Assembly (NCBI GenBank): GCA_964016885.1
Contig: OZ024742.1
Span: forward strand, 106,578,001 to 106,642,000
Direction of reading: 5' to 3'
DNA from: Eledone cirrhosa
Taxonomy: Eukaryota
Length of the DNA: 64,000 nucleotides
Both the position numbers and the translations under genes were made by a program. Positions 515-33,676 of the stretch are shown here, piece after piece. Under the pieces are notes generated by a model. The model made no database searches. It saw nothing but the letters and a program-made list of their open reading frames with translations, and had not been told where the DNA came from. Numbering within the stretch: the stretch's first letter is position 1; each line of letters opens with the position of its first letter.

Positions 515-601
515 TGGTGGTGGTGGTGGTGGTGGTGGTGGTGGTGGTGGTGGTGGTGGTGGTGGTGGTGGTGGTGGTGGTGGTGGTGGTGGTGGTGGTG
601 G

Positions 602-632
<31 letters not shown>

Positions 633-1051
633 GGTGGTGGTGGTGGTGGTGGTGGTGGTGGTGGTGGTGGTGGTGGTGGTGGTGGTGGTGGTGGTGGTGG
701 TGGTAGTGGTGGTGGTGGTGGTGGTGGTGGTGGTGGTGGTGGTGGTGGTGGTGGTGGTGGTGGTGGTGGTGGTGGTGGTGGTGGTGGTGGTGGTGGTGGT
801 GGTGGTGGTGGTGGTGGTGGTGGTGGTGGTGGTGGTGGTGGTGGTGGTGGTGGTGGTGGTGGTGGTGGTGGTGGTGGTGGTGGTGGTGGTGGTGGTGGTG
901 GTGGTGGTGGTGGTGGTGGTGGTGGTGGTGGTGGTGGTGGTGGTGGTGGTGGTGGTGGTGGTGGTGGTGGTGGTGGTGGTGGTGGTGGTGGTGGTGGTGG
1001 TGGTGGTGGTGGTGGTGGTAGTGGTGGTGGTGGTGGTGGTGGTGGTGGTGG

Positions 1052-1082
<31 letters not shown>

Positions 1083-1123
1083 GGTGGTGGTGGTGGTGGT
1101 GGTGGTGGTGGTGGTGGTGGTGG

Positions 1124-1154
<31 letters not shown>

Positions 1155-1796
1155 GGTGGTGGTGGTGGTGGTGGTGGTGGTGGTGGTGGTGGTAGTGGTA
1201 GTGGTGGTGGTGGTGGTGGTGGTGGTTGTGGTGGTGGTGGTGTTGGTGGTGCTGGTGGTGGTGGTGGTGGTGGTGGTGGTGGTGGTGGTGGTGGTGGTAG
1301 TGGTAGTGGTGGTGGTGGTGGTGGTGGTGGTGGTGGTGGTGGTGGTGGTGGTGTAGTGGTGGTGGTGGTGGTGGTGGTGGTGGTGGTGGTGGTGGTGGTG
1401 GTGGTGGTGGTGGTGGTGGTGGTGGTGGTAGGTGGTGGTGGTGGTGGTGGTGGTGGTGGTGGTGGTGGTGGTGGTGGTGGTGGTGGTGGTGGTGGTGGTG
1501 GTGGTGGTGGTGGTGGTGGTGGTGGTGGTAGTGGTGGTGGTGGTGGTGGTGGTGGTGGTGGTGGTGGTGGTGGTGGTGGTGGTGGTGGTGGTGGTGGTGG
1601 TGGTGGCTGGTGGTGGTGGTGGTGGTGGTGGTGATGGTGGTGGTGGTGGTGGTGGTGGTGGTGGTGGTGGTGGTGGTGGTGGTGGTGGTGGTGGTGGTGG
1701 TGGTGGTGGTGGTGGTGGTGGTGGTGGTGGTGGTGGTGGTGGTGTTGGTGGTGCTGGTGGTGGTGGTGGTGGTGGTGGTGGTGGTGGTGGTGGTGG

Positions 1797-1827
<31 letters not shown>

Positions 1828-1856
1828 GGTGGTGGTGGTGGTGGTGGTGATGGTGG

Positions 1857-1887
<31 letters not shown>

Positions 1888-2299
1888 GGTGGTGGTGGTG
1901 GTGATGGTGGTGGTGGTGGTGGTGTTGGTGGTGCTGGTGGTGGTGGTGGTGGTGGTGGTGGTGGTGGTGGTGGTGGTAGTGGTAGTGGTGGTGGTGGTGG
2001 TGGTGGTGGTGGTGGTGGTGGTGGTGGTGGTGGTAGTGGTGGTGGTGGTGGTGGTGGTGGTGGTGGTGGTGGTGGTGGTGGTGGTGGTGGTGGTGGTGGT
2101 GGTAGTGGTGGTGGTGGTGGTGGTGGTGCTGGTGGTAGTGGTGGTGGTGGTGGTGGTGGTGGTGGTGGTGTTGGTGGTGCTGGTGGTGGTGGTGGTGGCG
2201 GTGGTGGTGGTGGTGGTGGTGTTGGTGGTGCTGGTGGTGGTGGTGGTAGTGGTGGTGGTGGTGGTGGTGGTGGTGGTGGTAGTGGTGGTGTGGTGGTGG

Positions 2300-2330
<31 letters not shown>

Positions 2331-2449
2331 GGTGCTGGTGGTGGTGGTGGTGGTGGTGTTGGTGGTGCTGGTGGTGGTGGTGGTAGTGGTGGTGGTGGTG
2401 GTGGTGGTGCTGGTGGTAGTGGTGGTGGTGGTGGTGGTGGTGGTGGTGG

Positions 2450-2480
<31 letters not shown>

Positions 2481-2521
2481 GGTGGTGGTGGTAGTGGTGG
2501 TGGTGGTGGTGGTGGTGGTGG

Positions 2522-2552
<31 letters not shown>

Positions 2553-2587
2553 GGTGCTGGTGGTAGTGGTGGTGGTGGTGGTGGTGG

Positions 2588-2618
<31 letters not shown>

Positions 2619-3508
2619 GGTGGTGGTGGTGGTGTTGGTGGTGCTGGTGGTGGTGGTGGTAGTGGTGGTGGTGGTGGTGGTGGTGCTGGTGGTAGTGGTG
2701 GTGGTGGTGGTGGTGGTGGTGGTGGTGGTGGTGGTGGTGGTGGTGGTGGTGGTGGTGGTAGTGGTGGTGGTGGTGGTGGTGGTGGTGCTGATGGTGGTGG
2801 TGGTGGTGCTGGTGGTGCTGGTGGTGGTGGTGGCGTTGGTGGTGCTGGTGGTGGTGGTGGTGCTGGTGCTGGTGGTGGTGGTCGTGGTGGTGGTGGTGGG
2901 GGTGGTGGTGGTGGTGGTGGTGGTGGTGGTGGTGGTGGTGGTGGTGGTGGTGGTGGTGGTGGTGGTGGTGGTGCTGATGGTGGTGGTGGTGGTGGTGGTG
3001 CTGGTGGTGCTGGTGGTGGTGGTGGCGTTGGTGGTGCTGGTGGTGGTGGTGGTGCTGGTGCTGGTGGTGGTGGTCGTGGTGGTGGTGGTGGGGGTGGTGG
3101 TGGTGGTGGTGGTGGTGGTGGTGGTGGTGGTGGTGGTGGTGGTGGTGGTGGTGGCGTTGGTGGTGCTGGTGGTGCTGGTGGTGCTGGTGCTGGTGGTGGT
3201 GGTCGTGGTGGTGGTGGTGCTGGTGGTGCTGGTGGTGGTGGTGGCGTTGGTGGTGCTGGTGGTGGTGGTGGTGCTGGTGCTGGTGGTGGTGGTCGTGGTG
3301 GTGGTGGTGGTGGTGGTGGTGGTGGTGGTGGTGGTGGTGGTGGTGGTGGTGGTGGTGGTGGTGGTGGTGGTGGTGGTGGCGTTGGTGGTGCTGGTGGTGG
3401 TGGTGGTGTTGGTGCTGGTCGTGGTGGTGGTGCTGGTGGTGGTGGTGGCGTTGGTGATGCTGGTGGTGGTGGTGGTGGTGGCGTTGGTGGTGCTGGTGGT
3501 GGTGGTGG

Positions 3509-3539
<31 letters not shown>

Positions 3540-3690
3540 GCTGGTGCTGGTGGTGCTGGTGCTGGTGCTGGTGGCGGTGGTGGTTGTGGTGCTGGTGGTG
3601 CTGGTGGCGGTGGTGGTTGTGGTGCTGGTGGTGCTGGTGGTGATGGCAGTGGTGGTGGCGGTGGTGCTGGTGGCGGTGGTGGTGGTGGTA
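515..3690. repeat. 3.2-kb (GGT)n array with variant triplets
   Basis: Nearly pure GGT on the left, increasing GCT/GTT/GCG/CGT/GAT variants to the right, and a few phase shifts. Confidence 0.97.
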
Positions 3691-15325: not shown

Positions 15326-16219
15326 TTAATTGTAAGTTGTGATGTTGCTGTTCCACTCATGTTTTCTATTTAATTTTGGTTGTAATTCTTTTATGTTTAT
15401 TGCCTCTGTGATTTGTCTAAACATTGCGTCTTTTCTGTGTGTAGATTCTATTTTTATTTCTATGTTCTCTAATTTACCCTTATGTTTTATTTTAGCATGT
15501 TGGTAGAGTACAGATGATTCTTTACTATCTTGAAGGTTTCGCCAGTGTTCATTTATCCGTTCCCCTACACTACGAGCTGTCTCACCTATGTACACTATAT
15601 TTTTGTCTCTACATTGTCCTTCAGTACATCTTATGCTATATACTACATTTCTAGTTTTACAGTTAATATGGGGGCTTAATTTACAGGTTATACATTTCTT
15701 ATCTATACAGGGCGGTCTTTGAAAAGGGTATGTCTTGCTAATAAGTGTTTTTACGGAGGTACCTGGTCTTTCTATCTTAATATTGAGTTTATGTTTATCT
15801 AGGGCCCTTCTAAATTTGTAAGCTAATTCACCTCTAGGGGTTGTATCGATGAACATTACACTCTAGCATTTATTGCTATCATACCATGAGTTTATTCTAT
15901 TAGCCTTATTCCTAGTTCTTTCTATTCTATTCCAAAATTTGCTCCTATACAAGGGGCAGGTCCCATTTGTGTCATTATTTACCATTTTTTCCCATTTGGT
16001 TCTGGCTCCTCTATACACTCTGATTTTATCTCTCTGATTGTAACCAGAGCACTGCATACGGTGGATGAAGTGTTGTATGTGTCTCTCTAGTTCTTCGGGG
16101 TTGCACATGCGGGACACGTTTCTCATCACCCGTACCAAATCCGCAATGAGTATGTTGATTTAGGTATGGTCCGAAACAGCTGAGTTTCGGTGGATCAGAT
16201 ATTTGGAAGTCATGGGTTT
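15326..16219 (-). mobile_element. Penelope-like retroelement remnant of a second clade (Cx4Cx2C linker, GIY-YIG)
   Basis: KPMTSKYLIHRNSA; MQCSGY; PPCIDKKCITC; NVVYSIRC...VYIGETARS...RINEH; RQITEAINI...LNRKHEW. Confidence 0.92.
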
Positions 16220-20232: not shown

Positions 20233-20428
20233 TATATATACACACACACACACATGTGTGTGTGTGTGTGTAATCATCCGCCATTTTTAACGACGTTAAA
20301 GGAGGTTAAGTTTGACACCAATGTTACACAAATGCCACATGATATAATGAATGAGTGATGAAAAGAAATGATAGAAAGAAGAAGTAAAAAACAATAACCA
20401 GAGAGAAATAGTGCACATGTTTACTCCG

Positions 20429-20955
20429 CGGGTAAACACAGCTGTTACTCAGCGGGTAAACACAGCTGTTACTCAGCGGGTAAACACAGCTGTTACTCAG
20501 CGGGTAAACACAGCCGTTACTCAGCGGGTAAACACAGCCGTTACTCAGCGGGTAAACACAGCTGTTACTCAGCGGGTAAACACAGCTGTTACTCAGCGGG
20601 TAAACACAGCTGTTACTCAGCGGGTAAACACAGCCGTTACTCAGCGGGTAAACACAGCCGTTACTCAGCGGGTAAACACAGCTGTTACTCAGCGGGTAAA
20701 CACAGCTGTTACTCAGCGGGTAAACACAGCCGTTACTCAGCGGGTAAACACAGCTGTTACTCAGCGGGTAAACACAGCTGTTACTCAGCGGGTAAACACA
20801 GCCGTTACTCAGCGGGTAAACACAGCCGTTACTCAGCGGGTAAACACAGCTGTTACTCAGCGGGTAAACACAGCTGTTACTCAGCGGGTAAACACAGCTG
20901 TTACTCAGCGGGTAAACACAGCCGTTACTCAGCGGGTAAACACAGCTGTTACTCA
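20429..20955. repeat. Minisatellite, 22 x 24 bp (CGGGTAAACACAGCYGTTACTCAG)
   Basis: Head-to-tail units with a single T/C variant position and no spacers. Confidence 0.97.
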
Positions 20956-23254: not shown

Positions 23255-25640
23255 CCGCCACTCTCGAGTACGGATGCGGAGAGCTGCGAAAGGCCGATCA
23301 CAGCGGTCGAAATAGAAGATACCCTAGGCCGCTGCGGGAAACGCAAATCACCCGGTTTAGATGGTCTACCCTATGAGTTTACTTAGGCATGCCAGACTTG
23401 TTCTCTGGCGTCCTCGAAGCGGTCTACTGCAACTGGCAGCAGAACGGGAGGATTCCCAGTTCTGTAGGCAGAGGCGTAGTAACCCTGATCAGGAAAGATG
23501 AGAACAAGGAGGATGAGATAAGCAATTTCAGGCCCATAACTCTGCTCAGCACAGAGTTAAAGATTTTGGCCAAGGTGTTAGCAGCAAGGCTGGCGCTTGT
23601 CGTCGAGAACCTGGTAGGGGAAGCCCAAACGTGTGCAATCCCGACCAGGTCCATACACGACAACCTCCACCTCATGCGATACATCATAGAGAGGGTAGGG
23701 TGTAAACCTGGTTTTGGTGGGGCTCTGATCAATTTAGATCAATCTAAGGCATTTGATAGGGTCGACCATCAATACTTGGAAGCAGTTCTCAAGGCGACCG
23801 GCTTCGGTCCCGTCTTCAGAGGCTGGATCGCTGCCATGCACACCAGCATCTGCTCGGCAGTCAAGGTGAATGGCTACCTATCAGAGCCATTCCAAATCAT
23901 GCGTTCCATCCGTCAGGGATGCCCTCTCTCCTCCATTCTGTATGTACTGACTCTCGAGCCGTTACTGCGGAAATTGGAGCTGTTGCAGGGCATCCCGATC
24001 GAACCAGGACTGCTGCGGAAAGCAGCGTCAGCCTATGCCGACGACATAACTGTAATGGTGTCGAAAACCTCGGAAATCAGGGTAATCGGCAACCTATTAC
24101 AGGAATACGAAACGTTGACAGCAGCAAGACTAAACCCAAACAAGTCTGTCGGTTTGCAACTCGGCACATGGAGAGGCAAACCCATGCCTTCCGACAGTAT
24201 CGTAGGACGCTGGACGGAAGGACCGGTGAAATTGCTCAGGGTCTGGTTCGGTCCAGACCTCCAGGTGGACAAGAACTGGAACGAGGTCACAGCGAAGGTG
24301 TTTGCACTCACCCACAAGTGGGCTAAGTGCAAACTCTCCTTGAAAGGTCGAGCGGAGGTGGCAAACACTTACATAGCGTCCGTCATCTACTAATGCTTGA
24401 CAGTCGTGCCTTGCCCCTGCGAATACCTTACGAAAATGGAACGACTACTCTTCAAGTTCCTCTGGAAGAAACAGGCTCCATTGGTGAGGAGATCCATCTG
24501 CTGTCAACACCCTTCTAATGGAGGCCTGGGCATGCCGTGGCTGATGATGCGCAAACATGCGCTGAGGCTACGCCATCTCCAGGTATTCCTGACCGGTGAA
24601 CCGGTGTGCTGTCGTTTGTGAGACAAGCTCTTCCAAAACTCGTCTCACTAACAGAAACACAGACAGCTGCAGTCCTGGGTCAAGCGAAGACCGAAAATGG
24701 GTGCCTGGCACCTCGAGTGCCTACAGGCGCTCACAGCCCTCTACCAAGCGGAAACGGCAATCAGCGGAGACTCCACTTCGACAATCTATAGGGGATTAGT
24801 GGAGGATAAGTGCGACGACGTTCTCGGAGAAACTCTAGGCATCGAGGAGGACGAACTGACTAGTCTGTTCGGGAGGACTTTCCGTCCAGGGCCTATGGAT
24901 AACTTCCAGAGGTCTCTGGCTTGGCAGTGCTACCGAGGAGTTCTACCAGTTCGAGACAAAATCTACAGGCACGGACGCCCTGGCAGAGATCCTGCCAAAA
25001 GGACCTGTCCAAGATGCGAGCAGGACATCGAAACCGTTCTGCACGCAATTGTTCAGTGCCCAGGGGTGACCAACCTGTGGAATTGGGTCGAACAGCTGCT
25101 GTCACGTGTGGGACGCATCCAGTTGTCAGCCGAGTCCATCGTGAAGATCACCCCGCCGCCTTCATTTAAGAACGAAGGAGAGGCGGTTTTCCTCTGTCTG
25201 GTCGCTATGGCGAAAGAGGTAATATGGTGGACGAGGTTAAAAGGACTGAGGGCAAACACCTTTCTCTCCGGACAACTTATCCCCTTCTTAAAGTATCACT
25301 TCAGAAGGAAGGTGAGAGTGGAGAGAGAGGTGCTACACACCAGTAAATTCGCTGAAAGGTGGGTGAATGTGGCAAAAATGGCCCGAGTGAATGGGCCTTC
25401 TCTGTATATAAACCTGTAGGTTGAGGAGGATAAATAGAGGAAGACAGGAACACCTACAAAAGGTGTTCCTGGTGTTGAGGGTTGTTCTATCCACGCAACC
25501 CTGCAAGATTTCAATTGTTGTTTTATTATATATAGTTTATTGTTATTTATTAATGTTAAAGTTATTTTATGTAAAAACCCCTCCGTCACGTCTTGTAATG
25601 TCCCATCTGTGTACGCCCCTGTGGCAAATAAAGAAAGATA
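23255..25640 (+). mobile_element. L1/Tx1-clade LINE, 5'-truncated ORF2 with 3' UTR
   Basis: KSPGLDGLP; NFRPITLL; LDQSKAFDRV; IRQGCPLS; AYADD; C-terminal CPRC..ETVLH...C knuckle. Contains an internal stop and frameshifts, and AATAAA at 25627-25632. Confidence 0.95.
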
Positions 25641-27042: not shown

Positions 27043-27095
27043 AGCATCAGCCGTACTAAGAGTGAGAAATGAAATTTCGTTTCATTCTTTTCCAT
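27043..27095 (+). mobile_element. Short terminal fragment of the 442-bp HHR monomer family
   Basis: ccgtactaagagtgagaaatgaaatttcgtttcattcttttccat matches 56907-56951 and is flanked by (TA)n. Confidence 0.8.
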
Positions 27096-33004: not shown

Positions 33005-33035
<31 letters not shown>

Positions 33036-33172
33036 TGTATGTATGTATGTATGTATGTATGTATGTATGTATGTATGTATGTATGTGTGTGTGTGTGTAT
33101 GTGTGTGTGTATGTGTATGTGTATGTGTGTATGTGTGTATGTGTGTATGTGTGTATGTGTGTGTGTGTATGT

Positions 33173-33239
<67 letters not shown>

Positions 33240-33242
<3 letters not shown>

Positions 33243-33676
33243 ATTTAAGTATCAGCCCTACTAAGAGTGAGAAATGAAATTTCATTTCATTCTTTTCCAT
33301 TTGGCGTTTTCGGTACGCCCGGCCGACTAACTCACTGGATATGCAAATTAGGCTGCTCAGCCGTTAATATGCATAAGGAAAGTATATACTTTCAAACGTT
33401 CAATCATCTGACAGGAAGGTATACGGTGCTGACGATAGCTAATAAGCTTGAAACTAGTTCATCGTTCCTTTGTCAGTGTTGAACAAAAAGGGAAACGATG
33501 GTTGCCGAACACTGTACGGCTTAATTCGGGCTGTTTGTTTACAAACAAACCGAACAATATAATAAATGTTCGGTGAACCCATACGTACATATATATATAT
33601 GTGTGCGTGTATCTATATATATACATACTACTGCTGTACGTCTGTATACATATATGTATGTACGTATACATACTTA
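33240..33676 (+). mobile_element. ~440-bp HHR monomer (retrozyme-like), one unit
   Basis: Homologous to 56482-56955 but in a different circular permutation. Confidence 0.85.
33416..33470 (+). ncRNA. Minimal type I hammerhead (GTT triplet)
   Basis: aagg-tat-acggtg-CTGACGA-t-agct-aata-agct-t-GAAAC-ta-GTT-catcgt-t-cctt. Confidence 0.85.

What the first reader, a model, noticed from the sequence alone, without database searches (positions are those of the whole stretch)
33240..33676. Same HHR monomer in a different circular permutation
Seen: this copy begins at tacatttaag, which is near the end (56891) of the 56482 copy, and ends just before that point. A 50-bp piece at 27043-27095 ends at nearly the same ttccat position as the 56482 copy. 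This permutation pattern is what a circular or multimeric RNA template predicts.
Basis: partly seen in the sequence, partly recalled or inferred. Interest (0 to 1): 0.7.

Follow-up and report, generated by a model that had tools for sequence, protein, structure and literature searches.

The report
Penelope-mobilised hammerhead retrozyme copies
These are three cut-short copies of a 430-base non-coding repeat with a hammerhead-ribozyme motif, present over 10,000 times in this animal genome, whose copies end at two fixed points and start at random as Penelope-type jumping genes do, so it likely spreads by borrowing their enzyme to copy an uncut, probably circular RNA.

Summary
Observation confirmed. 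Copy A (33240-33676) is one 435-bp monomer, copy B (56482-56953) is a monomer plus 30 bp in another register, and copy C is the last 53 bp. Each monomer holds a minimal type I hammerhead motif, and the family has over 10,000 copies.

The 'permutation' is not free. 3' ends fall at two fixed sites about 63 nt apart (117 of 132 arms), mostly into (TA)n. 5' ends are random. Head-to-head arm pairs use one site each (37 of 41). This is the published Penelope-like element (PLE) footprint, here on a non-coding unit.

None of 85 copies starts at the ribozyme cut site, so the template is uncut or re-ligated RNA. No copy runs into coding sequence, and no parent PLE was found. Circle versus long linear multimer is not settled; a circle is somewhat favoured. 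There is no RNA evidence.

Verdict: a new member of the known animal non-LTR retrozymes. Its copies give genomic support for the proposed PLE-driven spread. This scan noted the same pattern before on other DNA of this genome (e1-8665316, e1-10327172).

The parts
33240..33676 (+). Copy A: one 435-bp monomer plus terminal TA; 3' end at fixed site E1 (no tail); 5' truncated at unit position 1
33423..33465 (+). Minimal type I hammerhead motif of A: stem I ACGGTG/CATCGT, core CUGACGA, U.U then stem II AGCU/AGCU, GAA, palindromic stem III ACUAGU, triplet GUU; predicted cut after 33459 (unit 220)
   Evidence: activity not tested
33240..33302 (+). The 63-nt segment between E1 and E2 (the 'tail'), here at the start of A; holds a hairpin
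33580..33676 (+). Internal purine-pyrimidine (TA/TG-rich) tract of the unit; its length varies between copies
33006..33239 (.). (TATG)n/(TG)n microsatellite 5' of A; (TA)n follows A
56482..56953 (+). Copy B: unit 34-437 plus 1-63; 442-bp monomer with 30-bp terminal repeat; 3' end at fixed site E2 (with tail); inside (TA)n
56633..56675 (+). Hammerhead motif of B, triplet GUA, predicted cut after 56669
56891..56953 (+). Tail of B (unit 1-63)
56466..56481 (+). 16 nt between (TA)n and the 5' end of B that did not align to the unit; origin unexplained
27043..27095 (+). Copy C: tail-only piece (unit about 8-61) ending at E2 inside (TA)n
   Evidence: 7 of 77 E2-ending arms stop within the tail

Best explanation
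The three pieces are 5'-truncated copies of an abundant non-coding hammerhead repeat (a non-LTR retrozyme) with two fixed 3' ends, likely inserted by a borrowed Penelope-like reverse transcriptase-endonuclease copying an uncut, probably circular RNA. Shown: the family, its copy number, the two ends, random 5' truncation, (TA)n targets, head-to-head arms with one end type each, and no stop at the ribozyme site. Inferred: multi-unit loci are transcribed; paired hammerheads cut out a monomer, which is ligated to a circle; the PLE protein nicks (TA)n and primes internally at E2 on one side of the break and at E1 on the other; each cDNA stops at random (about 0.003 per base) and may pass one lap. 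A one-armed copy is left when only one arm is seen. The class assignment is about 0.9 likely; the circle rather than a linear multimer is about 0.6.
For: Family: 10,192 exact hits of the 32-nt core and 13,326 of the next 32-mer, reversed controls 0. Ends: 117 of 132 arms in 79 position-ordered loci end at E1 (61) or E2 (56), windows that cover 8.5% of the unit; 74 of 80 arms in a second set of 49 loci. (TA)n follows 99 of 117 such ends against 4 of 15 others. Pairs: 24 of 26 and 13 of 15 classed pairs are E1+E2, together 37 of 41, p=5e-8. This matches the one-sided tail and inverted arm of PLEs (PMC8557442; PMC3846280) and the two internal start sites of a PLE in vitro (PMC11167929). One empty-site comparison gives a 9-bp duplication. 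Template: 0 of 85 copies start at the cut site; 118 of 214 units run on past position 1 with no pile-up of 5' ends; natural arrays reach 4.5 to 9 units. Single-template signs: units of one insertion differ by 3.7% (tandem) and 4.6% (opposite arms) against 10.6% between loci; 18 rare variants are shared by all units of an insertion, 7 across opposite arms; one private variant is in all 7 units of both arms of L248. Ribozyme: 96% of cells pair; stem I pair 3 reads GU 11, AU 10, UG 4, CG 1 of 27 distinct rows.
Against: No RNA, cleavage or circle was observed. No autonomous PLE sharing sequence with the unit was found in three families checked. Rfam gave no hit. The monomer's minimum-energy fold does not form the active core. 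Only 2 pairs covary on both sides, which 295 of 500 shuffles reach. Shared variants also fit homogeneous source arrays or gene conversion; 9 of 19 young multi-unit insertions have an identical neighbour, as a few master loci would give. Unit length varies nearly as much within arms (SD 18) as between arms (SD 26). The Anolis PLE uses uncut RNA and needs no ribozyme cleavage (PMC11167929). All position-ordered samples come from the first 52 Mb of one contig and were picked by exact motifs.
Confidence: 0.6

Rival explanations
1. Same element and same PLE enzyme, but the template is a long linear uncut transcript of a few multi-unit master arrays; the hammerhead cuts little and no circle is needed.
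For: Everything about the ends fits equally. Masters of 3 or more units would hide a transcription start at the measured truncation rate (arithmetic). 9 of 19 young multi-unit insertions have an identical neighbour. The Anolis PLE inserts uncut RNA (PMC11167929). 8 of 9 Xenopus dimers did not cleave in vitro (bioRxiv 10.64898/2026.07.22.740005).
Against: Daughters of linear templates cannot be longer than their parent, yet young arrays reach 6.5 to 9 units. Private variants are shared by all units of L248 and L249. No shared 5' flank or fixed 5' end was seen; the junction-shared hits were low-complexity or chain breaks (my reading). The core stays intact across subfamilies.
Confidence: 0.29
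2. The pieces are debris of tandem pseudo-LTRs of a coding PLE.
For: The footprint is that of PLEs, and coding PLEs with their own hammerheads are very abundant here.
Against: 0 of 85 free 5' flanks run into PLE coding sequence on the same strand (4 PLE proteins as queries; antisense hits in 4 flanks). The unit closes on itself in arrays. The longest stop-free sense stretch in three arrays is 87 codons. No homology to 66 PLE loci of three families beyond nested copies.
Confidence: 0.05
3. The template is the linear, ribozyme-cut monomer.
For: The motif is conserved and predicted to cut at unit 220.
Against: 0 of 85 copies selected by the sequence just after the cut begin there; 82 keep the whole ribozyme upstream. 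Many arms exceed one unit.
Confidence: 0.03
4. A satellite spread at DNA level (slippage, unequal crossing-over, extrachromosomal DNA circles), the ends shaped by (TA)n recombination.
For: The unit has TA-rich tracts, both ends show short homology to (TA)n, and local sub-unit satellites exist (L043).
Against: It does not predict polarity (fixed 3', random 5'), the E1+E2 rule in 37 of 41 pairs, or a 9-bp duplication at a non-microsatellite site.
Confidence: 0.03

Closest known systems
Metazoan non-LTR retrozymes (Cervera and de la Pena 2020, PMC7229834, parts 2-4 of 6 read; Li, Clavereau and Pollet 2026, bioRxiv 10.64898/2026.07.22.740005, parts 1-3 of 5 read)
   Same: 150-450-bp non-coding unit, one type I hammerhead per unit, monomers to multimers, thousands of copies, low GC, PLEs in the same genome. 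Axolotl HHR_Amex2 also has a U.U at the base of helix II and a weak helix III.
   Different: Sequence is unrelated as far as tested (no Rfam hit). Expression and circles are shown there and untested here. The parts read propose PLE mobilisation but do not describe fixed ends, tails or inverted arm pairs.
Endonuclease-positive PLE insertions (Craig et al. 2021, PMC8557442: passages, section 11, supplement search hits; Arkhipova et al. 2013, PMC3846280: passages)
   Same: 5' truncation, partial tandems, adjacent inverted arm, tail at one end only, (TA)n targets (Hydra, Naiad, Neptune), 8-10-bp duplications.
   Different: No ORF here; the tail is about 63 nt rather than 30-40; the whole unit repeats.
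Anolis Poseidon PLE (Frangieh et al. 2024, PMC11167929, parts 1-2 of 4 read)
   Same: Two internal start sites that define the tail; both strands cut and extended; no dependence on ribozyme cleavage.
   Different: Coding element tested in vitro; its start sites lie about 85-90 nt past the cut, here 217 and 280 nt.
Minimal PLE hammerheads (Cervera and de la Pena 2014, PMC4209133, parts 1-2 of 4 read)
   Same: Palindromic, unstable helix III that needs a dimer; that paper already proposes circular templates for more-than-unit copies.
   Different: Short helix II with U.U instead of a long helix II with G-C; it sits in a free tandem unit, not in a pseudo-LTR.

Membership tests
Non-LTR retrozyme | Type I hammerhead core and stems in each unit | tested here: met
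   below Rfam's gathering score
Non-LTR retrozyme | Unit of 150-450 bp in head-to-tail tandem, many copies | tested here: met
   421-442 bp, sister subfamily about 460-550 bp; arrays up to 9 units; over 10,000 hits
Non-LTR retrozyme | Non-coding, no LTR structure | tested here: met
   longest stop-free sense stretch 87 codons in three arrays; 0 of 85 flanks run into a PLE ORF; primer-binding site and polypurine tract not searched
Non-LTR retrozyme | Target-site duplication longer than 4 bp when present | tested here: inconclusive
   9 bp at one locus with empty-site comparison; hidden by microsatellites at the window copies
Non-LTR retrozyme | Self-cleavage of the transcript | not testable with these tools
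   only a predicted dimer duplex, -8.0 and -6.8 kcal/mol
Non-LTR retrozyme | Expressed as linear and circular monomer RNA | not testable with these tools
   no RNA reads were available to lay
PLE-type insertion | Fixed 3' ends with optional tail, random 5' truncation, inverted arm, tail on one side | tested here: met
Autonomous PLE or its pseudo-LTR | RT and GIY-YIG ORF joined to the repeat | tested here: not met
Dependent of a Hydra-clade PLE | Sequence shared with a partner's terminal repeat | tested here: inconclusive
   none in two Hydra-like and one Neptune-like family; other families not sampled; (TA)n target fits Hydra

The most novel reading that the evidence does not exclude
The genome records rolling reverse transcription of a re-ligated ribozyme RNA circle by a PLE enzyme pair: one enzyme primes at each of two hairpin-marked sites, one on each side of the break, giving mirror-image arms. 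This would be direct genomic evidence for the circle-to-DNA step that was proposed for retrozymes and PLEs and, in the papers read here, not shown.
Probability: 0.5. Interest if true: 0.65.

Novelty: new member of a known kind. Interest (0 to 1): 0.42.

Why it matters
How animal retrozymes get back into DNA is proposed but not shown in the papers read. This family gives sharp, testable predictions: two priming sites, one per side of the break, a template intact across the ribozyme site, and a constant drop-off. A sister subfamily is very young (0.36% difference within insertions), so it may still be active and open to assay. The class itself is known, and this scan has noted the footprint several times in this genome.

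Tried and rejected
Expression: no RNA holder listed. The three listed runs are of unknown kind, one sample, kept as contigs; laying them showed only family diversity and that A's GUU triplet is the minority form. They may be the source sample.

Rfam at gathering threshold: 0 hits.

RNA-editing scars (lead from e1-8803865): shared variants A>G 4 against T>C 1 (p=0.375); private 25 against 32; the A>G share differs weakly (Fisher p=0.045). Not supported in this sample.

One-lap stop on a circle (A is exactly one unit): no excess of 5' ends at positions 1-6 (2 against 2.2) or 58-72 (6 against 7.0).

Mixed arm pairs with another family: 0 of 84 free 5' flanks hold another hammerhead pointing away. 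The one candidate, L087/L258, is a retrozyme inserted in a Hydra-like ORF and later moved with it.

Unit-length uniformity as a circle test: not discriminating.

The pair counts for the second set were polluted by low-complexity hits (26 false E1+E1 pairs); they were discarded and redone. The all-against-all flank search was swamped by other repeats, its output was cut, and it was replaced. The repeat finder was swamped by microsatellites.

Literature: searches found no paper on a retrozyme of this kind in cephalopods or on these end patterns in retrozymes; PMC13282606 (passages) has no occurrence of 'ribozyme'. The supplement of PMC7229834 could not be read and bioRxiv supplements are closed; either may list this family or such ends. 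The host taxon was not tested; 'cephalopod' comes from my impression of the repeats and from earlier notes.

Full report
Observation. Unit coordinates are those of copy A (33240 = 1). B matches A 34-437 at 88% and then A 1-63 at 90%; C matches about 8-61. A is a 435-bp monomer plus the TA that starts the next unit; B is a 442-bp monomer plus 30 bp. The junction implied by A's two ends occurs 750 times as an exact 23-mer, control 0. All three copies end in (TA)n.

The ribozyme motif. A and B carry stem I ACGGTG/CATCGT, core CUGACGA, a U.U pair before a short stem II, GAA, and a palindromic stem III ACUAGU with triplet GUU (A) or GUA (B); the predicted cut is after unit 220. Among projected copies the five commonest forms (39, 30, 28, 15, 10 copies) differ only at free core and loop positions, the triplet's last base and one stem I pair. 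On 27 distinct rows of a 35-row alignment that I picked from plus-strand copies, 96% of cells pair and that pair reads GU 11, AU 10, UG 4, CG 1; only 2 pairs change on both sides, which shuffles reach often. The monomer fold does not form the core; two copies can pair through stem III, as described for dimeric hammerheads (PMC4209133). Rfam has no hit. The unit folds more stably than shuffles, linear or circular, partly because of its self-complementary TA-rich tract (my reading). Activity is inferred.

The family. The genome is 3.0 Gb. The 32-nt core has 10,192 exact hits and the adjoining 32-mer 13,326, the latter including a younger subfamily with longer units. I fetched the first 100 listed hits of each search, all from the first 52 Mb of contig C1. 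After dropping duplicates of the same place this gave 79 and 49 loci (13 hits of the second list lay in the first set); arms cut by a locus edge or confined to the low-complexity tract were dropped.

Ends. In the first set 61 of 132 arms end at E1 (unit 420-437), 56 at E2 (48-66), 15 elsewhere; in the second 34, 40 and 6 of 80. (TA)n follows 99 of 117 fixed ends and 4 of 15 others. Of 35 head-to-head pairs 24 are E1+E2, 2 E1+E1, 0 E2+E2 and 9 involve another end; of 18 pairs in the second set 13, 2, 0 and 3. Together 37 of 41, p=5e-8. At least two exceptions (L062, L115) look like chaining breaks in the TA tract, and the same fault may inflate E1 slightly. 5' ends follow a flat hazard of 0.0031 per base with no pile-up. 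So A is an E1 copy, B and C are E2 copies, and the 'permutation' is two fixed ends plus random truncation. This is the PLE pattern: partial tandems, inverted arm, tail at one end only (PMC8557442; PMC3846280), explained by two internal start sites (PMC11167929). At L258 a copy sits in a Hydra-like ORF; 18 of 18 uninterrupted copies give the empty site and show a 9-bp duplication whose last 3 nt overlap the E2 end. About 8 nt past each end lies a 4-5-bp stem with a 7-nt GCC-containing loop, 97-98% paired in the sample; this lead came from e1-9533619, there is little variation to test it, and its role is untested.

Is it coding-PLE debris? None of 85 free 5' flanks runs into PLE protein on the same strand, and three arrays have no sense frame over 87 codons. 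Three coding PLE families were checked: a Neptune-like one (window 15329-15862, 38,816 candidates, own hammerhead), a Hydra-like one (57664-58640, 59,041 candidates) and a second Hydra-like one. The clade labels rest on zinc-finger motifs as described in PMC8557442, not on a tree. None of 66 loci shares sequence with the unit except nested copies and a 37-bp, 78% match to the ribozyme of another repeat. The partner is unidentified; a rare parent is not excluded.

Template. None of 85 copies chosen by the sequence just after the cut site starts there; 82 keep the full ribozyme. The template is therefore uncut or re-ligated. For a circle: units of one insertion are closer than units of different loci (3.7% and 4.6% against 10.6%; 0.36% against 2.3% in the young subfamily); 18 rare variants are shared by all units among 98 multi-unit insertions, against 348 private ones (about 1 expected by my hand estimate); 4 private shared variants occur in 19 young multi-unit insertions, one of them doubtful, one spanning all 7 units of both arms of L248; and linear copying can only shorten arrays. 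Against: homogeneous masters or gene conversion give similar signs, 9 of those 19 have an identical neighbour, unit length is not uniform within arms, no editing bias is seen, and a PLE tested in vitro uses uncut RNA. I put the circle at about 0.6.

Comparison. The unit meets the sequence-level definition of animal non-LTR retrozymes (PMC7229834; bioRxiv 10.64898/2026.07.22.740005). Cleavage and circular RNA, which define them experimentally, could not be tested. Those papers propose PLE mobilisation and circular templates; in the parts read they do not map insertion ends. Six searches found no description of this family; unread supplements may bear on that. My reading was written down before I looked at earlier notes; those notes report the same footprint on other DNA of this genome and are not independent evidence.

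Verdict. A real feature, a new member of a known kind, with useful mechanistic traces. Interest 0.42.

Noticed in passing
window 15329-15862 (-): GIY-YIG end of a young, very abundant Neptune-like PLE (38,816 candidates; open frames up to 1257 aa elsewhere) with its own hammerhead about 200 nt after the stop.
   Followed up: partly
window 57664-58640 (+): Broken Hydra-like PLE fragment (thumb and endonuclease); 59,041 candidates in the genome. A hammerhead with a U.U base of stem II and palindromic stem III lies in inverted arms next to two copies (L205, L215).
   Followed up: partly
window 48723-48760 and 54794-54825 (+): Two more hammerhead-like cores of other families next to (TA)n; the first lies in a strong fold-back (z -5.75). 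Both failed my stricter stem check.
   Followed up: partly
window 23377-25416 (+): Non-LTR (LINE-type) reverse transcriptase and zf-RVT fragments.
   Followed up: no
window 57003-57110 and 57225-57330: Another element in two inverted arms right after copy B, separated by (TA)n; a related piece starts near 54900 (by eye).
   Followed up: no
L258:4273-7396 (G000:C1 near 18.49 Mb): A Hydra-like PLE copy carrying this retrozyme in antisense was itself re-inserted as a two-armed structure, 97% identical arms.
   Followed up: yes
L252:6550-8000: A different 310-bp hammerhead repeat in two opposed arms of near-identical units.
   Followed up: no
L043:1747-3063: A local satellite of about 88-bp pieces from the unit's TA-rich tract (unit 334-423), at least 14 copies.
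   Followed up: no
window 515-3689; 20421-20955: A 3.2-kb (TGG)n array and a 24-bp unit repeated 22 times at 97% identity.
   Followed up: no
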